In this document: piece after piece, positions 7,582-59,602 of the stretch
Position numbering within the stretch: position 1 is the stretch's first letter
How the letters are laid out: each line of letters begins with the position of its first letter
Assembly (NCBI GenBank): GCA_963693365.1
Contig: CAVNZM010000012.1
Location: 1,674,001-1,738,000, forward strand
From: Amoebidium appalachense
Taxonomy: Eukaryota; Protista; Ichthyosporea
DNA: 64,000 nt
Direction of reading: 5' to 3'
Program-made: the position numbers and the translations under genes
Notes under the pieces: generated by a model
Database searches by the model: none
What the model was told of the DNA's origin: nothing
Seen by the model: the letters and a program-made list of their open reading frames with translations, nothing else

Positions 7582-8929
7582 ATGGCCACCGAGCCCATCG
7601 TGCGGCAGACCAGCCGCATTAACTTCGGCATATACACGGCCGATGAAATTAGGAAACTTAGCGTGAAACGCATTACCAACCCAGTTCTGCTTGATGACAC
7701 AAACCTCCCAACCAAGGGAGGGTTGTATGATCCCGCGCTCGGGGCCACAAGCCCACACGAGAAATGTGTAACATGCAGCCTCTCGTACTTCCACTGCCCG
7801 GGTCACCCTGGGCACATAGAGCTCGTCCTGCCAGTGTATAATCCTATCCTGTTCGACTCCCTTTTCCAGGTGCTTAGGACGAAATGTTTCTACTGCGATC
7901 GTCTGAAATTAAGCCGTTTGTCCGTCGAGGTTTTCCTTGCTAGGATCAAGCTGTTGGAGTATGGTTTGCTGGAGGAAGCAATGGATTTGGACCCAGCGAC
8001 GTTGTTTGCAGAGGACGGTGAGGCAGAGGAGGTGATGCAGGTGGACGGGGAAACGGACGGAGGAAAGAAGGCGAGCAAAACGAAGAGTATAACGAAACAG
8101 CTGGAGGAGTCACACATTGGGATGGTGAATGAGTATGTGAAACGGGCGCTGAGGAATGCAGGGAAGAAAGGGCCGGTCACTCAGGATGAGCTGGACCAGC
8201 GCACGACCAACACGAACAATTATCACACACAGGTGAAACATGCTCCCTTTTGCCACTCCCCTTCTCCTGTTCTTCGTGTTCCCACAGAACTCTTATCTTA
8301 ATCGTTATAGGTTCTGGGATGTGGCACTGGGGTATAATGGAGTTGTGGACTGGATAGGAATGTGTGTGGTTGTGTTGTTAAAATTTGTATGTGCTGTTCA
8401 TGACCGAAGGAGAATAGTTGTTTAAGCTAATATGACAGTCCTACGGTGGTTTGAGTTTTTCCCCCCCCACTTTGTAGTGAATTATTGTGCTGGACTCGTG
8501 AAGTGACGACGAATTAAGGAGGCATGGGAGATTCACGTGAATGGGAGAGAGGTTATGGGAGAAGTGATGTGGCACTTGAAACTGTGGTTGAAAGGAGCAG
8601 TGTGGTACGGGAAGGAAAGCGATAAAGCGAAAACAACAGAGTTGAATGTGGAAGCGTAGTTTGAGCGAGGGATCAAAATAAACACTGAAGCATTGGGATG
8701 AAAGGGTAGAGGGAGAGTGAGGAGGTGGGGGGGGGGGGGGGGGGAGGAAGGGGGGGAGGGGCAGCAAGGGAGACAGGGGAGTGGAGGGGGTGTGAGAGAA
8801 GTTGTATAGAGAGAGAGGGTGTGTGTGTGTGTGTGTGTGTGTTTTGGGTGGGGGGCAGGGGGGAAGGGATGGGGGCGGAACAAGAGAGAGAGAGAGATGG
8901 TGTGTGTGTGTGTGTCTGTGCGTGCGTGC

Positions 8930-8967
<38 letters not shown>

Positions 8968-9731
8968 GTGCGTGTGTGTGTGTGTGTGTGTGTGGTGTCT
9001 GTGTGTGTGTGAACAGAAAGGCTAGGGACACCGTTTGGTGTAGGGATGACTCACGGCTTGAAAGCATTAGTTTCTTTCTCCCGTATTGCTTAGGAGGAAT
9101 CAATGGATTTTTGGAACAATTAGTAAATGATGGGATCTGAATTGGTTGGATTTGGGGGCACCTTGAGTGTGTATGTCCTATGTGTTGTTGTGTCTCTGTC
9201 CATTATGGCATTATCTGAATTGTGTTTTGGCACGGAGACAGAAAGAACATTAGTGTCTTTGTTTTGCCACAGCCTTCTGTTATTGGTTTAAGCTGGTGTG
9301 TTGTGTATGGTGTAATGGTTGTAGCTAGATTGCAACTTTGAGTTTTTGGAGCTGTGTTGGGATGATTTCGTTCCTCGGGAGTACGTGAAGGGGGAAGGAG
9401 GTAGCAATAGGGATGGAAAAGGGGTGTGTGTGTGGGGGGGGGGGGGGGGGGGGGGAGGGGGGGGGGGGGGCGGGGAGGGTGGGAGGGTGGGAGCAAGCAG
9501 GGCAAGAATGTCACTGACACAACAACCCCCATCCCACCCTACTACCCCCGTACAAGCACACACCGTTTTTGCTTGCACACACCAGCAAACAACCACGTGT
9601 GTACATGATACGCACAATTGCACGATCCACGAATGCAAACACAACACATATGTGTTGCCATCCAAGCTCCCTTCCCCCCCCACCCAAACAAACAAAGACA
9701 CGGTGCAATATACACACACACACGTACATGC

Positions 9732-9796
<65 letters not shown>

Positions 9797-11094
9797 GAAT
9801 AGCTGATTAAGGAGTTCCTTGCGCTAGGAGCACGATGCAACCGGTGCCTGAACTGCGAGGCGCCGAGCCGTTCGTTCAAGAAAAACGGCGTGGGGAAGAT
9901 TTTCCTCATGTCGCTGCCGAACAAACAAGCAGATAAGTTGCGTGGAATGGGTATCAATCCGGAGGGTAACGACCCATTTGATATGCCCGAGGGAATTGTG
10001 GAAGTGGATGGGGAGGAAGAAGAGGGTGGAAGGAAAAAGAAGAAGGGGGAAGGAAAGAAGAAAGACGGAAAGAAGGGGAAGAAGGACGGGCAGGACACGT
10101 TTATCGACGACCAAGCGGAAGAGACGGATGGAGAAGGGGAGACGGAGGACGATGGGGAGAACGGGGAAGAGGGAGGAGAGGGGGAGGAGGAGGAGGACGA
10201 ATTCGCCAAGCAGGGAGAGAGGATTCAGGCGAGGGGGGAGGCGGAGAGGAAAGCGCAGGTGGCGGTGTCGGCGCGGTATCTCACCCCCCAGGTTGTGCGC
10301 GAGTACATTCGCAAGCTGTTTGCGATGGACTACAGGGCTCTCGCAATGATTTTCGGTCGGAGCAAGCGTGGGAAGGACGGGACGATTGAGCGTGTTGCGT
10401 CTTACGACATGTTTTTCCTGGACGTTTTGCCGGTTCCTCCGTCGCGTTTCCGCCCAGCGAATAAGGTCGGAGATATGTTGATGGAGTCGCCGCAGAATGT
10501 TTACCTTGGAAATGTGCTCAAGCAAAACGTTTTGCTTTTGGATATGATCCAGCAAATGAACGCGGCCGCTGACACGTCGATGAATGGAATCGGAGAGGAG
10601 AAAGGAGAGAAGGGAAAGAAGGAGAAGGGGAAGGGGAAGGAGAAAACGAAGGACACGGCACAGGGGGCTGTGCGGAAGGTGGATATGGTGAAGGTGCAGG
10701 CGGCGTGGAGCCAGATGCAGGTGTGTGTGTGGGTGGGTGGGTGGGGGGGGGGGGGGGGGGGGGGGGGGGGGTGGATGCGTGTGTGTGCGGGTGTGTGTGT
10801 GGGGGGATCGGTGTGTGTATGTGTGGGTGTGTGGGTGTGGCCGTGGTTGTGTGTGTCTTGTAATTTGTGGATTTGCACCGTATGGTTTGCATGGGTGGGC
10901 ATTGAGTGGTGTGTGGGTGTGTGCATGTGCTTGTGCGTGCCTGTTGTATGAAAAGTTGTCATTCTGTAATCGATTTATTGGTTGTTGTTGAAGGGATTGC
11001 TGCAATTCCAGACACGTGTGCTATACTTTGCACTGGTGCAAGTCTTTAAATGTGTTTGCGTGGTCTTCATTTTTGTGCGGCTGTGTGTGTGTGT

Positions 11095-11128
<34 letters not shown>

Positions 11129-11755
11129 GTCATTGCTGCGCTTTTTGAGGAATATTTGTCTGGGTTCGGGCCCGTCGAGGCACCCAAGACATGCACGTAT
11201 ATCTTGTATGGCATTGAAAACTTACACTTAGCCTCTCTTTACTCTACGCTTACTTGGCACATGCACATTCATCCACACCCGCATGTGTTATCACAAGCGG
11301 ACATGTATAAAACCACACCCCCACACCTACGTTCACATTCGCGTGAAAATCTTCCTTCAAACTCTTCCCTCGCGGTGCCTTCATCTCGCTTGCACTTTCA
11401 TCCGCTTTTGTGTGCGCACACAAACCTACACACACATGCACCACACCTCCATGCACACATCTCCACACACACATTTACTCTTACACACACACACACATGC
11501 ACGCACACACACACACATGCACATACAAACGAAACATCATTTCCCGCTTTTCCCGCCGCCCTGCACGCACGCGCGCACACACACTCATACACACACACAT
11601 GCACACCCTCCCCTCCGATGAATGGGTGAAACTCGGGTACTTTGGATGACCCGAGGATGGACTCTGTTTATTATGCATACTACTTTTTGTGGTTTGCACC
11701 CTTTATTATGTTGTCCGTTATGAATGATAACACCGTTTGTCTATAACACTTTTTT

Positions 11756-11812
<57 letters not shown>

Positions 11813-11947
11813 ACACACACACATGGCCCCCCCCCCTGAGGATGGGCTCTGCTTATTATGCATAGTCTTTATGTATGGCTTGCATTCTGCATCGTGTTAT
11901 CCGTTTTTTCTTGTGTACTTCGTACTTTTTGACGCATTCAACCCCCC

Positions 11948-11978
<31 letters not shown>

Positions 11979-12401
11979 AGACAAGCGTCAACGGTCTTAT
12001 GGACAGCGCGACACTTGGCGCCGCAGCCAAGCGAATGCCAGCAGGAATCAAGCAGATGCTCGAAAAGAAACAGGGTCTCTTCCGCATGCACATGATGGGC
12101 AAACGTGTCAACTATGCGTGCCGCTCCGTCATCTCTCCTGACCCTTACATCGGCACGCATGAGATGGGAATCCCCATGGTGTTTGCTACAAAGCTGACGT
12201 TCCCTGAGCCTGTGACCCCGTACAACCTGCACGTGTGTGCCCTAGAGTGCCATCGATACATGTGGTGGTTTGCATGGTCGTGGGCTCGGGAAGTTGGGAG
12301 ATGTATTGTGTTTTCTTCAATTGATAAAGAAAAGGGGGGGATGGATCATGCTTCTAAATGGTGGTAGCTAGATGCACGGGGAAGAAAGAGGGCTGGAGGA
12401 A

Positions 12402-12438
<37 letters not shown>

Positions 12439-12632
12439 AAGACGATTGCCTGATAAGATTGGATGGATAAGACTTTCCAGGGAACAGAGGGGAAGGGCGA
12501 GGTTATAAGACGATCCGGGGAGGGGGGGATGGAGAGAGGGGTTCAGAACGAGCGGTTTTTTTATTATGTGACGGGTATTATAATGTTTTAAGTGTTGACT
12601 AAGTGTTCCCAAGCTGGTATGCGTCATCCCCA

Positions 12633-12684
<52 letters not shown>

Positions 12685-13687
12685 ACACACAGTTTTTTCG
12701 GTTCCCCGTCCCTCTCCGCCTGTAAACAAAATGAAGAAGAATAGTGAACAAGCAGCACATGAAAAAGGAAAGGCTTGTTGTTTTCTTTGGGGTAGTAAGC
12801 AATACCGAAGCAAAAACACCTGCTAGTATTGTGTTGACCGCACAATTTTCCTTCACCTCAATTTTCTTAGGCGGTGGATACCAAGCTAATGCCACCCCCC
12901 CCCCCCCCCCCCCCCCCTCCCCTCCCTCCTTCTCTCCCTCCCTCCCTCCTCCCCCCCCCCCCCCCCCCCCCCTCCTCTCTCCCTCCCCTTCCTAAATTAT
13001 CACCCACCACAGGAAATGCGTGAAGCAGTAGCCAACGGTCCCAACGTGCACCCCGGAGCCACCCTAGTCGAGCACGAAGACGGTCGTGTGACGTCACTTG
13101 CAGCGCTGACCGTCGAGCAGAGACAGGCCCTGGCCAGCCAGCTGCTAACACCACCGGAGGGGGGTAGGACCAGACACATGCTGGGCAAGAAGGTGCACAG
13201 GCACATTAGGACCGGGGATGTGGTGCTGGCAAACAGGCAGCCTACACTGCATAAGCCGTCGATCATGGCGCACAAGTACGTGTGTGTACGAGTATCATAC
13301 GTGTGTGTGTGTGTGTGTGTGGTGGGGGGGTGGAGTGGGGAGTTGGGGGGGGGGGGGGGTAGGCGGAGGGGTAGTTGGGGGGGTGTGGGGGGGGGGGGGG
13401 GGGTGGGAACGAGGGGTGGTTTGTGTGTGTGGGGGGGGGGGAGGGAGGGGGGGGGGGGGGGGAAGGGGGAAGGGGGGTAGGTAGGAGAATAAACTGGTTT
13501 GGTGTGTGGTCGTGTGCGTGTGAGTGTGTGTATGCTTGTGTGTGTGTTTGTGTTGGTGGGCACGTCCATGTCCGTCTACGTGCATGTGTGTGTGTTGTGC
13601 TTTTCTGGTGGAGGGTTGATGTGTTGGGTTGACGGGTACATGTTTGTAATGGTGATGGTGAGGGAGGGAGGAGATATAGATGCGCGC

Positions 13688-13766
<79 letters not shown>

Positions 13767-13872
13767 CGCGCGGGCGTGCGCGTGTGTCGGTATATTGGTG
13801 TTTCGGATAAAGAAGGGGCCATATCATAGACCGACATAATTTTCGTTGTGGAGCTGTGGTGAAGGTTGGGTT

Positions 13873-13907
<35 letters not shown>

Positions 13908-15278
13908 GCGTATGGAGGGTTGATAGTTGTAGTTTTTGAGTGTGGTTACAAGTAGGGGAATTATGGTTGATAGTGAAGTTGAGTTCTGCCTTTGTCTGAT
14001 GAAGAACGTTTGAAGAGAAGAAAGAAAAGGGAGGTAGGATCTGGGAGCAAGAGGGTTATTGGTATTCGCTTGTTTTGTGTGACTGAGGTGTTTTGTGAAG
14101 AGGGTGTGGGTGGAGTATGTGTGTCAGAAAGCTTGTGTCTTGTCATTCGTTTCCTTTAGCGTTTGTGGTTGTTGTGTCCATCCCCTACTTTGGCATTTTG
14201 TTGTCTGGTATTATAGACTTACTCACACTCGCTCATCCACAACATTACCCATCCATCCCCCCCCCCCCACATCTTTACTTCCATGCAACCGGGCATGGTT
14301 GCTCTGTGTCGTGCATCTGTAAGCACATACGCGTTTGTCGCTGCACTGCATTAGTTTGCACATACATCTTCACCGTTTTGCTCACCTTGCTTGCATAAGC
14401 AACCCTGCTCGTCTTTGATCAAGACGGGTTGACCCACCCAAGTTCAGTTGATGCTGCTGTCTGAGTTGGAGCGTCGTATATACGCGGGCTAAGGGGTCGA
14501 AACTCAGACGCAATTGATGACTTGGGCCCTCCCTGAGGATGGGCTCTGCTTATGACGCATACTGTGCGCATGGCTGATGCTGCATACTTGAATGTTTGCC
14601 TTTGCATGTGTCCTGCACCATGCTTCTCATCGTGTATGCGTACTTCGTACTGTGTTCCGCATTCAAAACCCCCCCTGTCTTCTTTCAGAGGTGTCCTTTC
14701 AGGACAGACCACTGTGTGGAGACATCTTTACTTCCATGCAACCGGGCATGGTTGCTCTGTGTCGTGCATCTGTAAGCACATACGCGTTTGTCGCTGCACT
14801 GCATTAGTTTGCACATACATCTTCACCGTTTTGCTCACCTTGCTTGCATAAGCAACCCTGCTCGTCTTTGATCAAGACGGGTTGACCCACCCAAGTTCAG
14901 TTGATGCTGCTGTCTGAGTTGGAGCGTCGTATATACGCGGGCTAAGGGGTCGAAACTCAGACGCAATTGATGACTTGGGCCCTCCCTGAGGATGGGCTCT
15001 GCTTATGACGCATACTGTGCGCATGGCTGATGCTGCATACTTGAATGTTTGCCTTTGCATGTGTCCTGCACCATGCTTCTCATCGTGTATGCGTACTTCG
15101 TACTGTGTTCCGCATTCAAAACCCCCCCCCCCCCCCCCCCTTCCCCTCTCACTCTCCCATATTCCATTACCCATTCTACCCGTTCCCTTTCATGAACACA
15201 AGCACATGCACCCATGCACATACACAAAAACACATGTGAACATACATTTGCCCACAACACACAATGCATACACACACG

Positions 15279-15317
<39 letters not shown>

Positions 15318-16061
15318 ATACACACACACACGTACACGCAGGGTGCGCGTCCTCCCGGGGGGAAAAGACCCTCCGCATGCACTACGCCAACTGCAACACA
15401 TACAACGCCGACTTTGACGGAGACGAGATGAACGTCCACTTCCCCCAGTCCCAACAAGCGCGCGCCGAAGCGTACAACATTGCCAACACAGACAACCAAT
15501 ACCTGGTTCCTACAAGCGGAAAACCCCTTCGCGGTCTTATTCAGGATCACGTTGCTAGCGGCTCTGTTTTGACTGCGCGCACGACGCTTATGGACAGGAC
15601 GAGATACCAGCAGCTGGTGTTTACCGCCCTGCCCGACCTCCCTGGCCGGGTTCGAACCCTGCCTCCGTGTATCATCAAGCCCAAGTATGTATTTAATGGG
15701 TGGGGTGGGGGGGGGGGGGAGGGGGGGGGGAGGGGTGATGGTGTGGGGGGGGGGGGGGGGGGGGGCGATGGGGGGGGGGGGGGGGGGGGGGGACGGAGGA
15801 GAGGAGTATTGGCCTCCGGAGGAGACAGGGAGGGGGGGGGGGGGGGGGGGGGGGGCTAAATTCTTTTCATTAGCGGGGGATGATAACAGCTACTATCGGG
15901 GGGATGATAACGGTGCTTGGAAAAGGGACACCATAGGAAGAAGGGGGGGGGGGAGAGGGGGGGATAGTGTGCAGTTGGAGAGGCGTAAGTGTGGTTAGGG
16001 GGGGAGAGGGGGGGGGGGGGGGGGTGCAGTTGGAGAAGCAGGAATGTGTGTGTGTGTGGGG

Positions 16062-16093
<32 letters not shown>

Positions 16094-16212
16094 ATAGATG
16101 AGAGGGTCTAGGTTTGGGATGTGTTTGGCGATTGCAACGCAGATGGTAGAGTGTAGGTGCCTATTGAATTTGAGTGTTTTCTCATCTGTGCATGCGAGCG
16201 GCAGGGGGAGAA

Positions 16213-16248
<36 letters not shown>

Positions 16249-17027
16249 TCATAGCTACATTTTGTCGTAAACCTACTCTACCTTTTCTCTACGGTAATTG
16301 AAAGGGAACTAATCAACCCCCCCAACCCCCCCAACCCCCCCAACCCCCCCCCACACACACACCCCTCTTTCCCCGTCGTTACGAGCGCCACCCTCTTATC
16401 TCAAACACACCGGCACCCACACAACACGTGTACACATATGTGCGCATGCACATACACACACACACACACACACATACCCACACGTACACGTACACGCACA
16501 CTCACACAGGGAGATGTGGTCGGGCAAGCAGGTGGTGTCCACCATCCTCCTGAACGTGTGCATGGAGGGCCGCAGCGACGCCGAAGCCCTTCACCTCGAC
16601 TCCCAGGCAAAGATTCCCTCATCCCTCTGGGGTGAAAAGTCGGAGGAAGGCAACGTGATTTTTCGTCACGGAGAGCTTCTTTGCGGTGTTTTGGACAAGT
16701 CTCAGTTCGGTGCTACAAGTTATGGTCTTGTTCACGCCTGCTACGAACTCTACGGGCCGGAGGCTGCGGGGAAACTTTTGACGGCGCTTGGGCGTTTGTT
16801 CACGGCGTACCTGCAGTTCAGGGGGTTAACTTGTGGGATCGACGATTTGCTGCTGACGCCGGCCGGTGACGAGGAGAGGAGGAAGCTTTTGAAGGAGGCG
16901 GATACGGCGGGGGCGGAGCAGGTTGCGGCGTTTATGGGCCAGCCTGATATGGCCAAGGACGTGGAGTATCTGAAGGACGGGCTGAAGGATATCTACCGCA
17001 GGTGTGTGTGTGTGTGCGCGTGTGCGT

Positions 17028-17058
<31 letters not shown>

Positions 17059-17744
17059 CGTGTGTTTTTTTTTGGGGGGGGGGGGGGGGGGGGGGGGGGG
17101 CTCGCTCTGTATTTATGAAGATCTCCTCTCTCTTTGCTGGTGTATGGGCTATTGGTCATGGATGGTTTGTTGGTGCGGGATTGGTTGTGTTTCAGAAGCA
17201 TGGGAGTGTGAGTGAGACCCGTGAGGATTTAGGGGCAGGACCGGGTGGGGAGGGGGGAGGGATAACGACGACTAGGGGAAGATAGCAAAAAGTGTGTGTG
17301 TGTGTGTGTTTGTGTGTGTGCGTGTGTGCGTGGTGGTATGTTTGTGTGTGTGTGTGTGTTGGGGTGGGGGGGGGGGGGGGGGGGGGGGTTCCCCCTCGAA
17401 ATCTATATGGGTGGGGTCGTGGGATGTGATGCACGTGTTTGTGGGGAAGAGAGGATGGCAGCACCCACACTATCTTGTGCTGATAAAAACGGGGGGGGAG
17501 GGGAGGGGGGAGGGGGGAACTTAGATTAACGATCTGGTGTATTAGTCTTAGCCTGGCACGTGTACCACCACCCACGTGGCTTCTGTTGCACACATGCACA
17601 CGCACACACTTGTCGTACACACAATGCACAGACACGGATGCACATACTGACACGTACGTAACACGTCACACACTCGCACACACACTCACACACACCAAGG
17701 AAAAAAACATACATGTGCAAGTACACACACGTACACGTACACAT

Positions 17745-17805
<61 letters not shown>

Positions 17806-19202
17806 ACGTATACGCAAACACGTACACACATACACAAACACATGCACACACACATTTTCCCTTCCACCCCGCAGTGACGAGAAGATGGCCGGGCTGGATG
17901 CCACCATGAAGACCCGCCTCAACCAACTGACCAGCAACGTCATCAACGCCTGCCTCCCCGGTGCAGCCCAGAAACCCTTCCCAGAGAACAACCTCTCCCT
18001 CATGATCCAGTCCGGCGCAAAGGGTAGCAGCGTGAACTCTTCGCAGATTTCCTGCCTTTTGGGCCAACAGGAATTGGAGGGAAGACGTGTTCCCGTGATG
18101 GTCTCCGGTCGTTCCCTCCCTTCTTTCCTCCCTTACGACACGTCGGCACGGAGCGGGGGTTATGTCCGCGGTCGTTTCTTGACTGGAATCAAGCCACAGG
18201 AGTATTTCTTCCACTGTATGGCTGGGAGAGAGGGTCTTATCGACACGGCCGTCAAAACGGCGCGTTCCGGATACTTGCAGCGTTGTTTGATTAAGCATCT
18301 GGAGGGGTTGAGGGTGCACTATGATATGACGGTGAGGGATACGGACGGGAGCTGCGTTCAGTTTGCATACGGCGAGGACGGGTGTGACGTTACGCGGACG
18401 GCGTTTTTGGAGAAATTCGAGTTTTTAAACAAGAACGAAGCGGCTCTACAGGGGAAACTCAAGCCTCAGGAGGCCGTTCAGCATATGAACTACACTAAGG
18501 CGACGAAGCTTTTTCGGAAAGTCAAAAAGTCGATTTCGAAAACACCGGATTCCCCGCTCGACCCAGTCCTCGGGAGCCTGCGGCCGGATTTGTACCTGGG
18601 CGCGACGTCGGAGAGGTTCCATAAGAATCTGGAAAAACACGTGGAGAGTGGGAAGATGAGGGAGGAGGTGGAGAAGGATGCATTCAGGCTGCTCATGTGG
18701 CTCAAATACAGGTGGGAAACCCCTGGGGTTTGATTGCTAAAATGGAAAGTGGGTGTTGTTGGAATGGTGGGTGGGTGGGGAGTTTGGCTCAAAAAAAGTT
18801 GCGGTTTGCCATGTGTATGGAGTGGTGAAGTGGGTGGGTGAGTGGGAGTGTGGCTCAAGTATACATTTGGAAATTGCTAAATAAGGAATGTAGTTGTGGG
18901 TGGGTGGGGTGGTCAATGTTGCTCACGTACAAAGGGATTTTTCTTTTTTTCGGAAAGTGGTTGTAGGTAGGTGTGTTGGAATGGATTGAAATGGGTGTGG
19001 TTTTAGATGTTAATGGGCAGAGAGAATCTGTACGGGGTTTGTGCCCGCCGGGTGTGTGTGCGTGTGTTTGGGACTGGGGGGGGGGGGGGGGGGGGGGGGT
19101 TGGCTTTTTGCACCCTCGCCATCATACTTTGAGTGGATACATTTATAGTTCTAGAATAAAGTGTAATCACGTCTAACCACCAGCACAACCACTCCCTTCC
19201 CC

Positions 19203-19241
<39 letters not shown>

Positions 19242-19796
19242 ACACACGCGTGTTACTACCCTGCGGCGTGGGTCAAATCTCATATTTTCCCCTCTGATTA
19301 CGAATTCTGTGGCCTTCGGGACTTAATTCTTTTCAGCTGGTGTAGTATGTTAGCCAGGGAAGTATCGACTTAGGTATCGACGGGGGAGCTTCCTAGAAGC
19401 CCCGTCTCCTGAGTTCCTATCTATATTTTTCTTGCTTCTGCTTACTGCTGCAACTTTAACCCCCGGCCTTTCCCACTGCCCTTGCCTGCATAAGCAACCC
19501 TGCTCGTCTCTGATCAAGACGGGTGACCTACTCATGTTCAAGTGAAACAGTATCTGAGTTGGGTTTCGTTAACGAGGGGAATAGGTCGAAACTCGGGTAC
19601 TGTGGATGACGTGGGCCCCCCCTGAGGATGGGCTCTGCTTATTATGCATACTCTTTATGTATGGCTTGCATTCTGCATCGTGTTATCCGTTTGTTCTTGT
19701 GTACTTCGTACTTTTTGACGCATTCAAAACCCCCCCCCCACACACACACCCCTTCACACACACACACTCACACTCACACTCACACTCACACTCACA

Positions 19797-19856
<60 letters not shown>

Positions 19857-19897
19857 GCACCCCACCTGTCTCACCCCCTCTCCCTTCTCCCACAAAT

Positions 19898-19934
<37 letters not shown>

Positions 19935-20480
19935 ATCCTCACCACCACCAATAAACAAAAAAAAAAAAAAAAAAAAAAAAAAAAACATCTGCAGGGCATC
20001 CCTTGCCGAGCCAGGTGAGGCCGTTGGTCTTCTTGCTGCCCAGGGAGTGGGTGAGCCCTCTACCCAGATGACCCTCAACACGTTCCACTTTGCCGGGTTT
20101 GGCGCCATGAACGTCACACTGGGTATCCCCCGTCTTCGTGAAATTCTCATGACGGCCTCGGAGAAGATAAAAACCCCCGCCATGACTATCCCCCTCCTGC
20201 CCAACGTGAAAAACCCCACCCAGCGCGCGGAAAAACTGCGCCATCGCTTCACCCGGCTGACCCTCTCCGATGTGGTGTCGAGCGTTGCTGTCAAGGAGTG
20301 GCTGGAGGCACCCAAGGTGAAACTTCCTTCCGACACCCCCCCCCCCCAAACACCCCCCAAACACCCCCCAATGATGCATTCTACTTTCAATATGGTTTTA
20401 CATACCACTCAGGGTCCGTTTCCGTGTTGTTGATGGTGTAGATATGATTCGTGCTGGGGTACTGCATCCCCTTCACCCCC

Positions 20481-20517
<37 letters not shown>

Positions 20518-21781
20518 ACTCCCCTCCTCCTAACACATACACACACATGAACCGGGGATAGTAGGCGTCTTTCTTCTGCTTACGGTCTCGTACATAGTCG
20601 TGGCCCCCTCTCTGCCGTTTCTGTTTGTGTCTCCCCCCCCTTTTGCTGGTTACCTCAGTGCGACCTACCACAGTTCGGTTCTCTCTCGGCCCCTTCCTCC
20701 CAATCGTTTTTCCCATGCTCCCTCCCCTATTATATCTTTGTGGTGTTGCTGTGCTTCGTCTTCATGTGTGTCGTTTCCTTGCCGAGTTTCCCATCTCTCG
20801 TGCCGTGTGATTCTGCGCGGTCCATTGTTTTTCCAGTTGCTTTTTTAAAGCTCTGCTCTTCCACATGTTTGCACAAAGCGGAACGTGACAGGTTTCAACT
20901 CTTGCATCCGCACACATAAGTAACCAACACACACCCTAGGTGAGGGTTTACATACAACAATACTCCTCCTTTATGCTGCACAACATGGTGTCCCCTCCCG
21001 TCCTCCCCCTCGCCTTCCTCTCCCCACATCCTTGGATGCACCCCCTTTTGTTGTTTTCCCTTCCAATGCGATTACTGACACCCCCCCCCCCCCCCCCCCC
21101 TTTCTCTCTCTTTTTTCCTCGGCCTCTCTATTATTTACCTACCCAACCGTGTCCTCCCTTTCAATCACCGATTCCCTCCCTCCCTCCCTCCGCTCCTTCC
21201 CTCCTTCCCGTTCCCCCCCCCCCCCCCCCCCCCCTGGCCTCCCTCGCCTGTCCCTCCCTCCCTCCCCCCCTCCCTCCCTTCTTCCCCCCCCCCCCCCCCC
21301 CCCCCCCCCTACCCCACCCCCCCACCCCTCCTCCCTCCCTCCCCGACACCCAACTCCCACAATCAACCCACCAGACCGGAGGCGTGCAGAGCAAGAAGGG
21401 AGACAAGCACATGCCAGCACACGGCCCCGTGCGCAAGTACCACGTGCGCATCGAGATGGACAGGGAGGTTGTTGCAAGCAAGGAGGTCATGCTCACTACC
21501 TCGGAGCTGAGACGGGGGCTGGAGAACCAACTTCTGCCCCTGCTAAATAGGGCTGTAGCTACGCACATTAAGGGGAAGAAGGCGAACTCGGCGGCAACGG
21601 TGCATTCATTGTCGAAGGCAAGGAAGGACGCTGATGCGGTGGGTGGTTTGTGGGTGGGTGGGGGGGGGGGGGGGGGGGGGGGAAAGGGGGTGGGGGGAAT
21701 GACGGGGGGGTGATTTGGGAGAGGGGGGGGGGGGGGGGAGGGGGGGGGAGGGGAGGGGATGAGAAGGTGTGTATGTGTGGT

Positions 21782-21813
<32 letters not shown>

Positions 21814-22122
21814 GGGGATGTGGGTGGGTGGGTGAGTGTTAGTTGGGTATGTAGGTGTGTGTGCATGTGTGTGTGTGGGTTGTATGTGTGTGGTTAGGGT
21901 GGTGTGGGGGAGAGGGAGGGGGGGGGGGGGGACACCCGCAAGGATACGAATTGTTCTACATGTGTGGTTTGGTGGTGTACTCGAAAACGGGGCGGGGGAG
22001 GAGGGGGGGGGGGGATTTTGCAGTGAAGGGGGAAGGGGGATGAGGCTGGTGGCAGGTATGAGGGGGAACCTCTCCAGGTTGGGATGTGGGTTTGGGGTGT
22101 GTGTGTGGGGAGTGGAGGGGAA

Positions 22123-22183
<61 letters not shown>

Positions 22184-23385
22184 TCGGAATGGTGGTTGTG
22201 TGGGGTCGTTGACTAAAGAAGCTTTGGGGGGGGGGGCACAGGAGGGAGGAAACGACGACGAGGGAGTTGATATGGACGAGGATGAGGAGAAACCAAAGAG
22301 GAAGTCACGTGACTGGGACGAGCCGGCAGCCGAGGGGGATGACGAGAACGAGGATGACGAGAACGAGGATGGTGACGCCACCGACGCTAAAAATAGAGGC
22401 AAGAGGAAGGAGAGAAGCACGTACAGTGAGAGCGAGAGTGAGGGGGAGGAGGAAGAGGAGGAGGAGGAGGGGGAGAACGGTGTAGAGGGCGGCGACAGGG
22501 AGGATGGAAACGAGGAGGACGGAAACGAGGGAGAGGATTCGAAGGAGGGGAAGAAGACAAAGAAGGGGGAGAAGGTGAAGGAAGAGAGGGTCACCAAGGA
22601 GGATATCGTTGCCGGGCTGCTGGGCAGGTTTGCGCCATATTTGGTGCAGTACGACTATGACGACGTCAACAGCCAATGGGCAGAGTTCACGCTTTCCATT
22701 TCCGGAAGCGCCCGGAAACTTCTTCTGGTTTCTCTCATCGAAAACCTTGCAGAGAAGTGTGTCGTCCGTTCCATCCCCGGGATTCGCCGCGCTCTGATTG
22801 CCGATCCGGAGCCGAGCAAGCCTAACGCCCCCGTGACGATTCAGACGGAGGGTTCGAACGTGCGTGAGGTGTGGAACCACGGGATGTATTTCGACGTGAA
22901 CAAGATTTACACCAACGACATTGTGATGATTCTCAAGACGTATGGTGTGGAGGCGGCCAGGGCGGCAATTATGCGGGAGGTGGCAAGCGTGTTCAAGGTG
23001 TGTGTGTGTGTGTGGTGGTGGTGGTGGTGGTGGCTGTTTTGGATGTGTGTGGTGTGTGTATTTTGCTTTTTTGTTTTTTTTTTTTTTGGGGGGGGGGGGG
23101 GGGTGAAGGCTGTCGAGAGCCCAGTGCGTTGGATGAGGGGGGAAAAATATCAGGGGTCTTTTTTTTTGTTTTGGGGGGGGGGGGGGGGGGCTTTGAGAAA
23201 GGTAAGCCAGGAACCAAGTTTTCTTTGCTGTATTCGTTTTTTGGACCTTGCTCTTGTGTGTTGCACGGTGTTATTCGTTGTCGGAAGTTTTACTGTGTAC
23301 TGTTTGTATGTTTTACTGTGTAGTATATTCTTAACCCATCTCCTCCCCCCCCCCCCCCCCCCCCCCCCCCCCAACCCCCAACCCC

Positions 23386-23460
<75 letters not shown>

Positions 23461-23475
23461 CTTCCCCCCCCCCCC

Positions 23476-23526
<51 letters not shown>

Positions 23527-23812
23527 ACAGGTGTACGGCATTGGTGTCGATATGCGCCACCTTTCCCTCATTGCCGACTACATGACCTTTGAGGGCGGCT
23601 ACAAGCCCTTTAACCGCATCGGAATTGACAGCAACCCGTCCCCCCTCGCAAAAATGACCTTCGAGACCACCATGAAATTCATGAAGAGCGCGGTTTTAAC
23701 GGGAGATTTTGATTCGCTGCGGAGTCCGTCGGCGCGGATCGTTCTTGGGCGGGTGGTGGAGGCGGGGACTGGGTGTGTCGATATGTTGCAGCCCCTGGCT
23801 CCTACTCACTGA
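7582..23812 (+). CDS. RPA1: DNA-directed RNA polymerase I largest subunit (A190), 11 exons
   Basis: Exons read at GT-AG boundaries with matching phases: 7582-8232, 9803-10720, 11981-12232, 13013-13275, 15342-15684, 16510-17001, 17875-18711, 19995-20316, 21375-21638, 22242-22997, 23531-23812. Motifs: [12 protein letters not shown]......[47 protein letters not shown], catalytic [69 protein letters not shown] and HYANC are Pol I-type. One extra G at ~15357-15362 gives an apparent frameshift. Confidence 0.97.
11620..11755 (+). mobile_element. Degenerate copy of the intronic structured-RNA repeat (B-like)
   Basis: gaaactcgggtact..tggatgac...gaggatggactctgtttattatgcatact aligns to 19588-19652; followed by poly-C. 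Confidence 0.65.
11825..11941 (+). mobile_element. 5'-truncated copy of the intronic structured-RNA repeat (subfamily B)
   Basis: Near-identical to 19614-19728 (ccctgaggatgggctctgcttattatgcata...gacgcattcaa). Ends in poly-C ~40 nt before the RPA1 exon 3 acceptor. Confidence 0.85.
14269..15121 (+). mobile_element. Head-to-tail dimer of the intronic structured-RNA repeat (subfamily A, 453-bp period)
   Basis: catctttacttccatgcaaccgggcatgg...ccgcattcaaaa at 14270-14668 and 14723-15121, apparently identical, each followed by a C-run. Lies in RPA1 intron 4. Confidence 0.9.
19245..19729 (+). mobile_element. Subfamily B copy of the intronic structured-RNA repeat with a longer 5' extension
   Basis: 19480-19729 aligns with 14385-14668 (gcataagcaaccctgctcgtct.tgatcaagacgggt...ctgaggatgggctctgcttat...gtacttcgtact...gcattcaaaa). 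Bounded by C-runs in RPA1 intron 7. The 5' limit is uncertain. Confidence 0.8.
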
Positions 23813-25998: not shown

Positions 25999-37973
<11,975 letters not shown>

Positions 37974-48200: not shown

Positions 48201-48916
48201 CTAAAAAGGCAGGTGATTGAAAATAGTGCCAGGGGGGGTTATGATTGGCCGACGCTCTTCTGCAGACATTCTGTATTGGGGAATGATGGCGGCGGCGGGG
48301 GGGGGGGGTTTGAATGCGGAACACAGTACGAAGTACGCATACACGATGAGAAGCATGGTGCAGGACACATGCAAAGGCAAACATTCAACTATGCAGCATC
48401 AGCCATGCGCACAGTATGCGTCATAAGCAGAGCCCATCCTCAGGGAGGGCCCAAGTCATCAATTGCGTCTGAGTTTCGACCCCTTAGCCCGCGTATATAC
48501 GACGCTCCAACTCAGACAGCAGCATCAACTGAACTTGGGTGGGTCAACCCGTCTTGATCAAAGACGAGCAGGGTTGCTTATGCAAGCAAGGTGAGCAAAA
48601 CGGTGAAGATGTGTGTGCAAACTAATGCAGTGCAGCGACAAACGCGTGTGCTTACAGATGCACGACACAGAGCAACCATGCCCGGGGGGGGGGGGGGGGG
48701 GGGGGTTGGTTGGTTAGGGTAAGTAAAAATGGACTAGGTAGGAGTGGGTAAGGGAAGAACGAGGCTGTGTCGGTATGTGTTCGTGTGTTCGTGTGTCCGT
48801 ATAGTGTGTCTGTCGTGTGCCTGTGTCGTGTGCCGTGTGAGTGTGCATGTGTGCAAGTGCATGTGTTTTAATGAATGCATGTACGTGTGTGCATGCGTGC
48901 ACGTGTGTGTGTGTGT

Positions 48917-48981
<65 letters not shown>

Positions 48982-49264
48982 TGTGTGTGCGCGCGCGCGC
49001 GAGTGTGTGTGTGTTTATGTATCCATGTGTACGTGTGTGTGTGTGTGTGTGTGTGCGTGTACATGTACATGTACTTGTGTTGGGGCGAGTGTGTGTCAAA
49101 GCCCTATGGTGTCCACGCTGTGTGTGTGTGCACGATGGGTGTGTATCTGTGTCTGTTCAGCTCCAGCTCTCTTTCTTTCTTTCTCATGGTGGTGGTGGTG
49201 GTGAGTGGCTTGGATGGGGTGTTTGTGTTTGTGGTTGCGGTGGTAGTTGGGGGGAAAAGCCAAA

Positions 49265-49298
<34 letters not shown>

Positions 49299-49578
49299 AG
49301 AACGGACACCACCATCATACACACTCACGGACGCACCCACCCGGGCAACGCCTCCCCCCCCCCCCCCTCCCCCCTTCTCCTTCCCCCCCTCCCCCCCTCC
49401 CCCCCCCCCCTTCTCCCCCTTCCTCCTCCTCCCTTCCTTCCATCCTCCTCCCTCATCCTTTTCAATGTTGAATCCACACGCACCACCAATACACACAGAT
49501 CTACCGAAAGTGAAACATACACACTGATACATATACGCACAAACAGCAAACAAACACGCATGAACCTAAATCATCCCC

Positions 49579-49609
<31 letters not shown>

Positions 49610-49638
49610 AAAAGGCAAGAGAGAAGCACCCACCCAAC

Positions 49639-49669
<31 letters not shown>

Positions 49670-50881
49670 GCACACACACACACACACATTCACCCAAAGA
49701 ACACACACAACACACGCACCTACACACCCACATACTCATACAAAGATGCACGCGCACGTGCACAGAGCACACATGCACACGCATGCAAACCCACACCCAC
49801 TCTACATCCGCATCAACCACAGCAACCACACCCAACTACCCTTCCCAACCACCCACAGACACACAAACACATGCACAAACACATGCACAAACACATGCAC
49901 AAACACATGCACAAACACATGCACACACGCACACACACCCATCCGCTCCCCTCAACCCCCCACCCACCCACCCTTCCCCCCCCCCCCCCCCCCCCCCCTC
50001 CACCAACACACGCACACCCATCCCCCCCCACCCCCACCCCCTCCGCCCTTCTCCCCGCCCATTCCCATCCCCTTCCCCTCCCCACTACCACCACCACACA
50101 AACGCACACGCACACCTACCCTCGCTCTTGGCCAGAATCTCTTCGTTCATTGCATCGCAGATCTTAGCCATCAGGTGGGAGAGCTTTTCGTTGTCTTCCT
50201 GGATCTGACGTTGGTCTCGGAGTACCTCCGTGTTTTCCATCGTCACATCTGTACGTGTGCATGCAAATGTGAGGGGATTTCGAGGGAAAACCTAGTATAC
50301 CCACAGGGTCGTGCACACACGCACACATGCAAGCACACATACACACACACCACACACACACAAACAAACAGATAGGATGGTAGGTGCAGAAAGAAGGCAA
50401 GTGGGTATGTGTGTGTAGGTGTGTGTCTGTGGGTGCTGGTGGCGTGTGGGCCATCGGGGGGGGAGGGGGGGGGGGGGGGGGGGAGGGGCATGTTTACATT
50501 GCCTGACGTATTTGAAGAGTGGAGACGGGATGATACTGGTGATGTTGGTGATGTGTGCATGTGCGAGTGTGAGAGTGTGCGAGTGTGCGGTGTGTGTATG
50601 TGTGTTTGTGTGTGCACGCGCATGTGACTGTGTTTGTGTGGGTGTGGGGGAAGAGGGGCACTTCACGTGGGAGGCAGATATCGGGGAGTGAGTGAGTGAG
50701 TGAGTGAATGTGAGTGTGAGTGTGAGTGTGAGTGTGAGTGTGAGTGTGAGTGTTCGGGGGGAAGAAGGGGGGAGGGGGGGAAAGAGGGGGGGGGGGGGGG
50801 GGGGGGATGTCTGTGATTGCTGGTGCAATAGTGTGTACGAGGCTAATCTGTGGCAGGGTGGGGTGGGAGAGGGGGGGGGGT

Positions 50882-50918
<37 letters not shown>

Positions 50919-51158
50919 CGCGGAAGAGAGGGAGAGGCAGAGAATGTGTGTGTGTGTGTGTGTTGTGGTGGCAGAGGTGGGTGGGTGGGCGCGGGAGGGA
51001 AGGGGAGGGGGGAGGGGGAGAGGGAGGGGATGAAAGAAGAGCGTTGGGAGCGATTGTGTGCAGGAGAGGAAACGAGAACGGAACACGAAGGTGCACGTGT
51101 GAAAGTGTCTGCCACCCATAGTTCGTGTGTGACTGTGTGTGTGTGACTGTGTGTGTGA

Positions 51159-51211
<53 letters not shown>

Positions 51212-53008
51212 CGCGCGTCGGCATGTGCGTGCGGGCGTGTGTGTGTGTGTGTGTGCCCCTGTGTCTTCCATGTGAGAAGACAGCTTATTGCTTGTCCTCA
51301 CTCATCATGAGCTAAACAAGAAGATAGAAGAGAATATAAAAAAGTGGCGGATGAAGGGGGAGAGGAGCCGGGGGGAGGGGGGGAGGGGGGGGAGGGGGAG
51401 GAGGGGGCAGCGGGCAGAGATGGGAGGTGGGGAGGGGAGAAAGGAAAGATGGGGGTACGGGGGGACGGGGGGCGGGCAGCGGGGGGGACAGGAGGAGGGG
51501 GGAGGGGGGGGGGGGAGGGGGGGACAAGCACGGGGTAAACCCGTGAAGTTGGGTTATCAAACGTGTACATTCCTGCCTGCGTAACTTATTATCCCTGGCT
51601 ACCCTACCATTACCCCCCCCCCCCCCCCCCTCTCCCTTCCCCCCCCGTTTCCCTCTCACATCGTCGCACGTACCCCCCGTACACTCGCACAGCTGTGGAA
51701 TGTTATGCCCAGCACACGAACCACCTGGGCAGTGCACGTTGGGCACCTGGTCAGCCCGTGCACAATCACCTGCCACGTTGACAGCCTTAAAAACACTTGT
51801 CTAATCCCCCACCTGATCCTTCTTCCTCAGAAAAATGACTCTCCATTCCTACCCCCTACCTATACAACGCTCAAGCAGTACACCTTTCTGAATCCTTCCG
51901 ATGCCGTGCACCAACTACTCCCTGTTACGGTCCCCCCTCTCAAAACAGCACATCATACGTACCGTTTATCGCAATTGCCAGTTGGGCGGCAAGTTTGCTT
52001 AGCTCAAGGGTGGACATCTTCGAGAGGTGTTCTGTGTGCACGGGAATTCTTAGTTTACAAAAAAGGCTCCCTGTGCACAATAAACCATGCAAGTACGTCA
52101 AGAACGAAAACGATGCACACCAGGGCCCAAAGCACACCCCCACAAGGCTCCCCCTCCTCCTTTTCCCCTCACTTCTTTCGCCATCATCCCGTACCGTGGT
52201 ATCCATCGACAGTTCGCACAAACACAAAACATTCACACACAAGGAACTAAACGTGGTTCTGCCCTTCACCAGACTCTCACGATTAACACCACAACCAAGC
52301 ATTTCACACAAAAAAAACCACACACACCCATTGACCCTGTACAGACCCGCACAGGTGCAGGGTACATAGTGAAAACGACACTCAAAACCCACACAAACGC
52401 ACACGAAATCACAGTAACACCACCTCCAGCAACAGCCAAACAAATACACAGACTCAAAACACACGCACACACACACGCATGCACACACGCACATACACAC
52501 ACGTGCACACCAAATACCCACCTTCTTTGTACGTGATCTTTGCCATTTCAAGCGCCTGCTTTTGCCTCCTTCCTAGCGCAGGTGACGTCAACGGAGCTGC
52601 CGAACCATCGACATTCAAGTATGGGTCAGCTATCTGCTTGTTAAACCCCTGCCATCCCAGCGCCTTTTTCGGTTTTCTCATCGAACCAGACCGAGACCTA
52701 TCCAAAGGAGAAGCAGAAGCGGATTTCTGTGAGCCCGTCCCATCTGGTTGTGAGTTATGGCGAAATATTCTATATTCGTTGGGTGACAGGGGCTCGCTGC
52801 CGCTATTGTTTTTGGCATCAAGACTCTGTAATGGGTTGAAATCCTGTGAACGTGAAGTTCTCATTGATGGCCTTGTGTTGAGACTCCCGCTCCCTTCAGA
52901 ATCTGAATCCAATCCTGTGAACGAGGAAGAAGGGGCCGGCGAGAGTGGGTCCTTTTCTAGGCGGATGCCTACGGGAGAGTCGTGGCGTGGCTCAATGATG
53001 GCTGCCAT
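48201..53008 (-). CDS. Hypothetical protein: Ser-rich N-terminus, C-terminal coiled coil
   Basis: Phase-1-compatible exons 53008-52522, 52031-51963 (HLSKMSTLELSKLAAQLAIAIN), 50248-50120 (DVTMENTEVLRDQRQIQEDNEKLSHLMAKI) and a terminal exon near 48270-48201 (two candidate acceptors). Confidence 0.6.
48308..48684 (-). mobile_element. Subfamily A copy of the intronic structured-RNA repeat
   Basis: Reverse complement of ~14290-14667 with only a few substitutions; flanked by G-runs on + (poly-C on the element strand). Sense to the minus-strand host gene and ~35 nt upstream of a candidate acceptor. Confidence 0.9.
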
Positions 53009-56137: not shown

Positions 56138-56177
<40 letters not shown>

Positions 56178-56880: not shown

Positions 56881-56918
<38 letters not shown>

Positions 56919-58363: not shown

Positions 58364-58405
<42 letters not shown>

Positions 58406-58651
58406 CTCCGTCCTCCCCCCTCCTGCCCGTCGGCATGTACTCCTCTCTCACTGTAACTCCTTGTGTTCATTTTCCAATGCTTTCCCGTGTGTGTCCTACT
58501 AATGGCACCCTTTTTAGTTGAAGTCTGTTTCTGATTTGACCCCCCACCCCCCCATCCTCCCCTCAGTGGATAACCCCCCCCCCCCCCCCCCCCCCTCCCC
58601 CCCCTCCCCCCTCCCCCCTGCCTCACCCACCCATCCACCCACCCATCCGCA

Positions 58652-58720
<69 letters not shown>

Positions 58721-59500: not shown

Positions 59501-59544
<44 letters not shown>

Positions 59545-59563
59545 ACCACCACCACCACCACCA

Positions 59564-59602
<39 letters not shown>

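What the first reader, a model, noticed from the sequence alone, without database searches (positions are those of the whole stretch)
8233..23530. Introns with G/GT-rich 5' arms and complementary C/CA-rich 3' arms: candidate intron-spanning duplex system
Seen: in 8 of 10 RPA1 introns (1-7 and 10), poly-G and (GT)n lie toward the donor and poly-C and (CA)n run up to the acceptor (e.g. 10721-10930 vs 11415-11978; 17002-17390 vs 17590-17850; 22998-23190 vs 23345-23524). The polarity is inverted on + in the minus-strand gene intron 50119-48271 and recurs at 56024-56940, so it follows transcription direction. Acceptors often lack a U-rich tract (cacacacag). Known: (GT)n/(AC)n pairs bridge splice sites in teleost introns and lower U2AF dependence. 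Inference: an independent and more extreme version that adds G:C homopolymer pairing and possibly competes with RNA G-quadruplexes.
Basis: partly seen in the sequence, partly recalled or inferred. Interest (0 to 1): 0.78.

Follow-up and report, generated by a model that had tools for sequence, protein, structure and literature searches.

The report
Exon-centred G/C skew shapes intron repeats
In this single-celled relative of animals, the DNA is C-rich entering most exons and G-rich leaving them, even at silent codon positions, and the complementary repeat arms in many introns are likely an extreme by-product of this wave rather than a dedicated splicing clamp.

Summary
It does not generalise as a bridging rule. 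Of 24 modelled introns in the window, 9 have both arms, 10 are one-sided and 1 is inverted. An intron's own arms pair no better than arms swapped between introns (-108.9 vs -111.4 kcal/mol, p=0.58), and pairing across exons is as strong. The polarity is opposite to zebrafish. The 'follows transcription' argument fails: the pattern is its own reverse complement, and the minus-strand intron reads the same way on +. What is new is that the skew runs through exons: four-fold synonymous sites go from C-rich to G-rich in 19 of 22 exons (odds ratio 3.1, p=2e-18), and likewise from start codon to stop codon. Best reading: a strand-symmetric, exon-centred skew wave, probably mutational, amplified by repeat slippage in introns. 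It resembles the gene-level skew of unicellular fungi but repeats at each exon. Selected RNA bridging or protein-binding signals remain possible.

The parts
7582..23812 (+). RPA1 (RNA polymerase I largest subunit), 11 exons; nearest named relatives are ichthyosporeans
8233..9802 (+). RPA1 intron 1: G/GT for most of its length, (CA)n at the acceptor
10721..11980 (+). RPA1 intron 2: both arms (G62/GT62 vs C75/CA110); holds two truncated copies of the poly-C-ended repeat
12233..13012 (+). RPA1 intron 3: both arms (G31 vs C82/CA22)
13276..15341 (+). RPA1 intron 4: both arms; 453-bp tandem duplication of the poly-C-ended repeat at 14269-15128
15685..16509 (+). RPA1 intron 5: large G arm, small C/CA arm; skipped by contigs of X9 and X10
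17002..17874 (+). RPA1 intron 6: best-matched arms; the only one of 8 folded whole whose plain fold brings the splice sites close; skipped by contigs of X9 and X10
18712..19994 (+). RPA1 intron 7: short G arm, long C/CA arm, A-run before the acceptor
20317..21374 (+). RPA1 intron 8: C-rich only (counter-example)
21639..22241 (+). RPA1 intron 9: G-rich only (counter-example). With intron 8 it gives the strongest predicted duplex among neighbouring arms, across exon 9 (-348.6 kcal/mol; 191 pairs)
22998..23530 (+). RPA1 intron 10: both arms (G34/GT33 vs C57/CA103)
23531..23812 (+). RPA1 last exon: four-fold sites go from G fraction 0.11 (n=19) to 0.89 (n=19) with no donor downstream in the model
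28144..37972 (+). Modelled M60-peptidase/EGF/DUF642 gene, 8 introns: none has both arms, yet its exons show the C-to-G gradient (p=9e-7)
48239..53008 (-). Modelled minus-strand gene, 2 introns (52521-50249, 50119-48271), both two-armed; the model rests on frame continuity only
55238..61332 (+). Modelled zinc-finger gene, 4 introns: none has both arms; G/GT tracts follow its stop codon
14270..14667 (+). Poly-C-ended interspersed repeat. Other copies: 14723-15120 +, 19363-19728 +, 11617-11756 +, 11824-11941 +, 48309-48685 -, 58147-58361 +, 47117-47204 -

Best explanation
The repeat arms are the intronic extremes of a G/C skew wave that turns from C-rich to G-rich inside exons and back inside introns, and the wave likely comes from a strand-asymmetric mutational process on DNA that repeat slippage then likely amplifies into poly-G/(GT)n and poly-C/(CA)n. 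Shown: the wave, its presence at synonymous sites and coding ends, and the lack of arm matching. Inferred: the cause. The mechanism I think most likely is recurrent exposure of single-stranded DNA either side of intron interiors (break resection or fork stalling at the tracts). That would convert C and A to G or T on the top strand to the left and do the mirror image to the right, over about 1 kb. Donor (GTGTGT, GTGGG) and acceptor (CACAG) sequences would seed slippage in the same polarity, and a poly-C-ended repeat adds C runs to 3' arms. RNA duplexes and quadruplexes would then form as a by-product that splicing tolerates.
For: Four-fold sites in multi-exon genes: G/C 208/303 in first halves vs 372/179 in second halves (p=1e-18). 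The effect holds after dropping 60 nt at each exon end (p=3e-10), without RPA1 (p=3e-7), and for every neighbouring base. Mantel-Haenszel odds ratio over 8 codon families is 3.07 (p=2e-18), and 19 of 22 exons with at least 10 sites rise. Coding ends without a modelled splice site behave alike: G31/C49 in the 150 nt after ATG vs G65/C22 before the stop in 7 genes (p=4e-6), against 119/218 after acceptors and 208/117 before donors. With tracts masked, intron halves still differ in 21 of 24 introns. C-to-G switch points fall in exons 17 of 21 times and G-to-C switch points in introns 16 of 17 times (partly a restatement of tract order). The pattern is strand-symmetric, arms are unmatched, and block order is not optimised for folding. 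The change along exons is G up, C and A down, T flat. This fits the strand-asymmetric C>N and A>N mutations in the 1-2 kb resected flanks of human meiotic breaks (PMC7615360, passages); assigning left and right sides is my inference from standard resection polarity.
Against: The 3 single-exon genes show no half-versus-half gradient (112/67 vs 111/73, p=0.67); only their ends differ (G19/C22 after ATG, G25/C8 before stop, summed). That points to some link with exon-intron structure. A C-rich start and G-rich end of genes is already known in fungi (PMC3315797), so the terminal-exon result could have its own cause and does not exclude a splicing cause at internal exons. Exon-edge skew does not track the adjacent intron arm (rho 0.13 and 0.18, n=21), which a single local mutational field would predict. 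Tracts after stop codons are mixed: G/GT of 60 nt or more in 2 of 7 genes, C/CA in 2 of 7. All 8 copies of the poly-C-ended repeat lie in the sense of the nearest gene, a direction-dependent feature. No polymorphism, break or replication data were available. Only 2 of 24 introns have read support, and UTR introns are not mapped.
Confidence: 0.45

Rival explanations
1. Splice-signal landscape read by proteins. Selection keeps G/GU-rich sequence on both sides of donors and C/CA-rich, AG-free sequence on both sides of acceptors as binding sites for exon or intron definition (hnRNP F/H-, CELF/TDP-43- and hnRNP L/K-like factors; recalled), in place of a U-rich tract. Complementarity is incidental.
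For: Acceptors are U-poor, with long AG-free zones (103-428 nt in 9 of 10 RPA1 introns). Skew is strongest within about 150-200 nt of splice sites and is absent as a whole-exon gradient in single-exon genes. The model needs no arm matching. PMC4691745 (discussion) names CELF1, MBNL1 and TARDBP as GT-repeat binders.
Against: The same skew appears next to start and stop codons. Ten of 24 introns carry only one arm type, and several carry C tracts straight after the donor. AG-free zones follow automatically from G-poor sequence.
Confidence: 0.27
2. One reading: selected intron-spanning RNA duplexes (G:C and GU:AC) bring donor and acceptor together and relieve the need for a U2AF2-bound U tract, as a reverse-polarity counterpart of the fish introns.
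For: 9 of 24 introns have both arms, including 7 of 10 in RPA1. Introns 2, 3, 6 and 10 fold 6-14% below dinucleotide shuffles (2-4 shuffles each). Intron 6 ranks its own 3' arm first of 24 and folds with its ends 15 steps apart. GT5' vs CA3' is weakly positive (rho 0.39 raw). Co-transcriptional folding would favour the within-intron partner (inference). G triplets 5' with C triplets 3' are proposed to bridge human introns (PMC4691745).
Against: Own arms are no better than swapped arms (p=0.58 all; 0.70 RPA1; 0.27 for the 9 two-armed introns). Across-exon pairing is stronger in 9 of 20 pairs, mean -118 vs -103. Block-shuffled introns are as stable in 4 of 4. None of 8 M60 introns and none of 4 zinc-finger introns has both arms. 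The folding model often prefers quadruplex for poly-G.
Confidence: 0.2
3. Chromatin signal: oriented poly(dG:dC) and GT/CA tracts position or exclude nucleosomes symmetrically around exons, like the oriented poly(dA:dT) tracts at yeast promoters (recalled).
For: The pattern is strand-symmetric. G runs (80) and C runs (68) of 10 or more lie only outside modelled exons and include 44 outside genes.
Against: No chromatin data here. It does not readily explain the synonymous-site gradient at 1-2 kb scale.
Confidence: 0.05
4. Assembly artefact: the tracts are invented or inflated by long-read homopolymer errors.
For: One exonic G run is one base too long relative to 4 of 4 runs. Short-read contigs stop at the tracts, so lengths are unverified.
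Against: DNA contigs of two studies (X1, X3) cover the unique intron pieces, and X3 loose ends continue into G and GT repeats. The synonymous and tract-masked skews do not depend on run length.
Confidence: 0.03

Closest known systems
[quoted passage not shown]
   Same: Coding strand is C-biased at the start and G-biased at the end; it affects four-fold sites and flanks; AT skew is much flatter; the cause (mutation or selection) is unresolved.
   Different: Here the C-to-G turn repeats at internal exons (19 of 22 exons), reverses inside introns, and is amplified into long homopolymer and dinucleotide tracts.
(AC)m-(GT)n bridging introns of teleosts and lamprey (Lin et al. 2016, PMC4691745; introduction, results and discussion read)
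   Same: Complementary dinucleotide repeats at opposite intron ends; weak or missing polypyrimidine tract.
   Different: Opposite polarity (GT 5', AC 3' here). Added poly-G/poly-C. No arm matching or avoidance of across-exon pairing was detected. The skew extends into exons.
Human (GGG)m-(CCC)n structured introns (same paper, computational proposal)
   Same: Same polarity: G-rich after the donor, C-rich before the acceptor.
   Different: Triplets within 40 nt there; here runs of 10-60 nt over hundreds of bases, with GT/CA repeats.
Strand-asymmetric mutagenesis in resected flanks of meiotic breaks (Hinch et al. 2023, PMC7615360; passages read)
   Same: Mirror-image C>N and A>N changes over 1-2 kb either side of a centre, plus tandem-repeat instability; a candidate cause.
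   Different: Shown at PRDM9 hotspots in humans. No evidence here that breaks centre on introns or that this organism has such hotspots.
Non-canonical end-paired introns of diplonemids (PMC12621601; passages read)
   Same: G-rich and C-rich inverted intron ends; CA-rich intronic motifs in a protist.
   Different: Those introns lack GT-AG and pair at the terminal 9 nt. Here 23 of 24 modelled introns are GT-AG, one is GC-AG.

Membership tests
Fish (AC)m-(GT)n bridging introns | AC repeats after the donor, GT repeats before the acceptor | tested here: not met
   Totals over 24 introns: GT 984 nt in 5' halves vs 215 in 3'; CA 323 vs 1066
Fish (AC)m-(GT)n bridging introns | [quoted passage not shown] | tested here: not met
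   No own-arm advantage; across-exon pairing as strong. n=24, low power; weak GT-CA trend
Fish (AC)m-(GT)n bridging introns | Intron folds more stably than shuffles and brings splice sites together | tested here: inconclusive
   8 of 10 RPA1 introns folded: 0-14% below dinucleotide shuffles, ends close only in intron 6. No gain over block shuffles in 4 of 4
Fish (AC)m-(GT)n bridging introns | Weak or absent polypyrimidine (U) tract | tested here: met
   T is 0-27% of the last 30 nt in 10 of 10 RPA1 introns
Fish (AC)m-(GT)n bridging introns | Splicing needs the duplex and not U2AF2 | not testable with these tools
   Needs minigenes and depletion; U2AF2 presence was not examined because no genome is held
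Fungal-type 5'C/3'G genic GC skew | C bias after ATG, G bias before stop, at four-fold sites | tested here: met
   G31/C49 vs G65/C22 over 7 genes, p=4e-6
Fungal-type 5'C/3'G genic GC skew | Skew extends into promoter/5' UTR and 3' UTR | tested here: inconclusive
   Positive skew after the stop in 5 of 7 genes; negative before ATG in 6 of 7 but mostly near zero
Fungal-type 5'C/3'G genic GC skew | One gradient per gene with an intermediate middle | tested here: not met
   The gradient restarts at internal exons: skew -0.31 to +0.35 across quartiles
Break-resection (ssDNA) mutational asymmetry | Mirror-image substitution spectrum around mapped break centres | not testable with these tools
   Only composition is available; sign and scale are compatible
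Non-LTR retroposon with C tail or C-tract target (recalled type) | Shared 3' end at a simple-repeat tail, variable 5' truncation | tested here: met
   7 of 7 aligned copies end in a C run and are 5'-truncated to different extents
Non-LTR retroposon with C tail or C-tract target (recalled type) | Autonomous partner or reverse transcriptase; clean target-site duplications | not tested
   No ORF over 84 aa in the copies; flanks are simple repeats, so duplications are ambiguous

The most novel reading that the evidence does not exclude
Every exon-intron unit in this ichthyosporean genome is a self-complementary skew domain strong enough to dictate synonymous codon choice. It is written either by intron-centred single-strand mutagenesis feeding on its own poly-G/poly-C tracts, or by a splicing system that has swapped U-rich tracts for reverse-polarity G/GU:C/CA pairing in most housekeeping introns, and it is exploited by a poly-C-seeking retroposon.
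Probability: 0.25. Interest if true: 0.8.

Novelty: new variant of a known kind. Interest (0 to 1): 0.52.

Why it matters
The cause of opposite GC skews at gene ends has been open since it was described in fungi. A genome in which the skew restarts at each exon, is large (about -0.3 to +0.35 at silent sites), and is amplified into visible tracts lets mutation and selection be told apart with polymorphism data from a few isolates. If instead the arms are functional, this would be an independent, reverse-polarity route to splicing without a U-rich tract in a close relative of animals. Practically, such skew biases codon-usage and selection estimates, and the tracts cause assembly errors (one frameshift found here).

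Tried and rejected
No whole genome is held, so all statistics rest on 7 gene models and 24 introns in one window. A second read-laying over the minus-strand and zinc-finger genes returned no result, so those models and the M60 model lack read support; they rest on open frames and Pfam hits. No run was listed as RNA on record; X9 is a guessed RNA run and X10 a guessed DNA run, and both behave as spliced. The acceptor at 56952 was rejected because it gives an in-frame stop; 57039 was used. The M60 and BTB frames were wrong, so supersedes it; an extra 59-nt exon (33968-34026) was added to restore the frame, and one M60 donor is modelled as GC. Rows dropped: exons with fewer than 10 G/C four-fold sites in the sign test (22 of 28 kept); RPA1 introns 1 and 4 were not folded whole; Pfam scan covered 12 of 14 intended segments; the partial intron at the window start and possible UTR introns were not counted. 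Rfam over 7000-27000 gave 26 matches, all below gathering score; these are chance hairpin hits to G/C tracts. A conserved branch point was not found: CTRAY lies within 260 nt of the acceptor in 4 of 10 RPA1 introns. AG avoidance or CpG context was rejected as sole cause because the gradient holds for all neighbouring bases. Three look-ups in earlier findings returned nothing. Ten paper searches and term look-ups in PMC11244446, PMC5560861 and PMC12695648 found no description of this pattern in ichthyosporeans. The library lacks most subscription papers and no supplements were read; Lin et al. Supplemental Table 3 lists further complementary motif pairs and could bear on novelty. The tree is the quick version; the careful search did not finish.


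Full report
Identity. The gene at 7582-23812 (+) is RPA1. An exon-7 search gave best full-coverage named hits in Sphaeroforma (67%), a CFRG (Creolimax, name recalled) protein (66%) and an Nk52 (Chromosphaera, name recalled) protein (62%). A quick tree of 18 proteins places it with the first two and one unnamed protein (SH-aLRT 97). The host is therefore an ichthyosporean; the genus is not established. Ten GT-AG introns were fixed from sequence, and the spliced product aligns over its length, with junctions in register. Contigs of runs X9 and X10 skip introns 5 and 6, and 4 of 4 laid runs lack one G in an exonic G run at 15357, which removes an apparent frameshift and shows homopolymer error in the assembly. 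No genome is held.

The observation. With G or C runs of 8 or more and 4 or more dinucleotide units, RPA1 introns 1-6 and 10 have a G/GT 5' half and a C/CA 3' half; intron 7 is mixed in the right order, 8 is C-only and 9 is G-only. The polarity score is positive in 10 of 10 (p=0.001). Acceptors are U-poor, and 10 of 24 modelled introns end in CACAG. I modelled three more spliced genes (M60 peptidase/EGF, a minus-strand gene and a zinc-finger gene). Over all 24 introns, 9 have both arms, 6 are C/CA-only, 4 G/GT-only, 3 mixed, 1 inverted and 1 has none. Outside RPA1 the polarity score is positive in 7 of 14 (p=0.13). These 14 introns lack read support.

The strand argument. A GT/G-left, CA/C-right arrangement is unchanged by reverse complementation. 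The minus-strand intron 48271-50119 reads G34/GT149 on the left and C82/CA64 on the right on the + strand, like plus-strand introns. It is not inverted on +, and the pattern cannot show that it follows transcription. It is equally compatible with a process acting symmetrically on DNA.

Tests of bridging. [quoted passage not shown] Here the polarity is opposite, though it matches the G-triplet/C-triplet arrangement that paper proposes for human introns. Arm matching was not found: G5' vs C3' rho -0.16; GT5' vs CA3' rho 0.39 raw (p=0.03, uncorrected) and 0.27 per length (p=0.11); type match rho 0.11, n=12. Duplex energies of 220-nt ends average -108.9 for own pairs and -111.4 for swapped pairs (p=0.58); among the 9 two-armed introns, -169 vs -163 (p=0.27). 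Across-exon pairs average -118 vs -103 and are stronger in 9 of 20, the strongest being introns 8 and 9 around exon 9. Whole folds of 8 of 10 RPA1 introns lie 0-14% below 2-4 dinucleotide shuffles each; without quadruplexes only intron 6 brings its ends close (15 steps). Allowing quadruplexes puts 18-213 nt into G4 in 7 of 8. Against 40-nt block shuffles, which keep the tracts, real order was not more stable in 4 of 4 introns. The duplexes are plausible physically but show no sign of tuning; n is small.

What is really there. Four-fold degenerate sites shift from C to G along exons: skew is -0.31, 0.01, 0.26 and 0.35 by quartile in internal exons; the Mantel-Haenszel odds ratio over 8 codon families is 3.07 (p=2e-18); 19 of 22 exons with at least 10 sites rise. 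This holds without RPA1 (p=3e-7), without 60 nt at each exon end (p=3e-10) and in all base contexts. It also holds in the M60 gene, where no intron has both arms (p=9e-7). The 150 nt after start codons hold G31/C49 and before stop codons G65/C22 (7 genes, p=4e-6), like 119/218 after acceptors and 208/117 before donors. With tracts masked, 21 of 24 introns keep the G-to-C decline. On the + strand, C-to-G switches fall in exons 17 of 21 times and G-to-C switches in introns 16 of 17 times, which partly restates tract order. Against a purely exon-centred DNA reading: the 3 single-exon genes show no half-versus-half gradient (p=0.67); exon-edge skew does not track the neighbouring arm (rho 0.13, 0.18); and tracts after stop codons are mixed.

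Mechanism. Shown: a strand-symmetric skew wave with a period of about one exon plus one intron, of which the tracts are the unconstrained extreme. Inferred: its cause. The change along exons is G up, C and A down, T flat (first halves C303 A224 G208 T175; second halves G372 T180 C179 A151). Mirror-image C>N and A>N mutation over 1-2 kb of resected single-stranded DNA is described around human meiotic breaks (PMC7615360, passages). If exposure centres on intron interiors, it gives G/T gain to the left and C/A gain to the right. Slippage, seeded by GTGTGT-type donors (5 of 24) and CACAG acceptors (10 of 24), would lengthen tracts in that polarity. I put this class of explanation at 0.45, a protein-read splice-signal landscape at 0.27, selected RNA bridging at 0.20, a chromatin signal at 0.05 and an artefact at 0.03. 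No data here separate mutation from selection.

A repeat that feeds the arms. Eight copies of an interspersed repeat up to about 400-480 bp were found. Seven lie in introns; the 7 aligned copies all end in a C run and differ in 5' truncation. All 8 are in the sense of the nearest modelled gene, although G runs are as common as C runs on + (80 vs 68). It looks like a retroposon 3' end with a C tail or C-tract target (type recalled, not tested). It explains some 3' poly-C, and it is the one feature here that does follow gene direction.

Comparison and novelty. The closest known pattern is the C-rich start and G-rich end of fungal genes, which also affects four-fold sites and has no settled cause (PMC3315797, parts 1-3 of 4 read). 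Here it restarts at internal exons. It is not a member of the fish bridging class: polarity and across-intron specificity were tested and not met, though it could still work like one in some introns. Diplonemid end-paired introns are non-canonical (PMC12621601, passages). A review notes strand asymmetries near splice sites (PMC10030826, passages); Touchon et al. 2004 was seen only as a citation. Ten searches and look-ups in three ichthyosporean-related papers (PMC11244446, PMC5560861, PMC12695648; passages) found no account of this pattern; supplements were not read. Verdict: a real feature and a new variant of a known kind; interest 0.52.

Noticed in passing
window 11617-11756, 11824-11941, 14270-14667, 14723-15120, 19363-19728, 58147-58361 (+); 48309-48685, 47117-47204 (-): Interspersed repeat with a shared 3' end running into poly-C, variable 5' truncation, and often C/CA tracts on both sides. 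All 8 copies are in the sense of the nearest gene: a possible poly-C-tailed or poly-C-targeting retroposon.
   Followed up: partly
window 15357: One extra G in an exonic G run frameshifts RPA1 in the assembly; absent from 4 of 4 laid runs.
   Followed up: yes
window 20317-22241: RPA1 exon 9 is flanked by a C-only intron and a G-only intron, predicted to pair across the exon (191 pairs, ends 4 steps apart): a candidate for skipping or back-splicing. It encodes a poorly conserved region and both junctions are phase 0.
   Followed up: partly
window 28144-37972 (+): Modelled secreted-type M60/enhancin-like peptidase with EGF and DUF642 domains. One donor is modelled as GC, and a degenerate second half-EGF copy with its own GT lies at about 35445-35502 inside a GT-repeat intron.
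   Followed up: partly
window 27399-28108: About 710 bp of (AC)n directly before the M60 gene's first modelled exon, preceded by G (26994-27026) and C (27201-27282) tracts; probably a 5' UTR intron with both arms, not counted in the statistics.
   Followed up: no
window 14269-15128, 36914-37445, 37553-37740, 39163-39507, 39643-39853, 61988-62260: Several near-perfect local tandem duplications of 93-453 bp; could be real repair products or assembly artefacts.
   Followed up: no
window 53733-54445 and 62564-63040: A second dispersed repeat (85-98% identical pieces) with internal short palindromes.
   Followed up: no
window 59067-59348: 23-bp minisatellite, 12 copies, inside zinc-finger gene intron 3.
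   Followed up: no
window 38517-40250 and 45170-48090: Regions outside modelled genes with many alternating G and C tracts (and T-then-G runs); may hide UTR introns or unmodelled exons.
   Followed up: no
window 40479-42272 (-), 43.6-44.96 kb (+), 3134-4096 (-): Single-exon genes: an FAD-binding oxidase, a BTB-TLDc protein and an ORF with no Pfam match; used as controls.
   Followed up: partly
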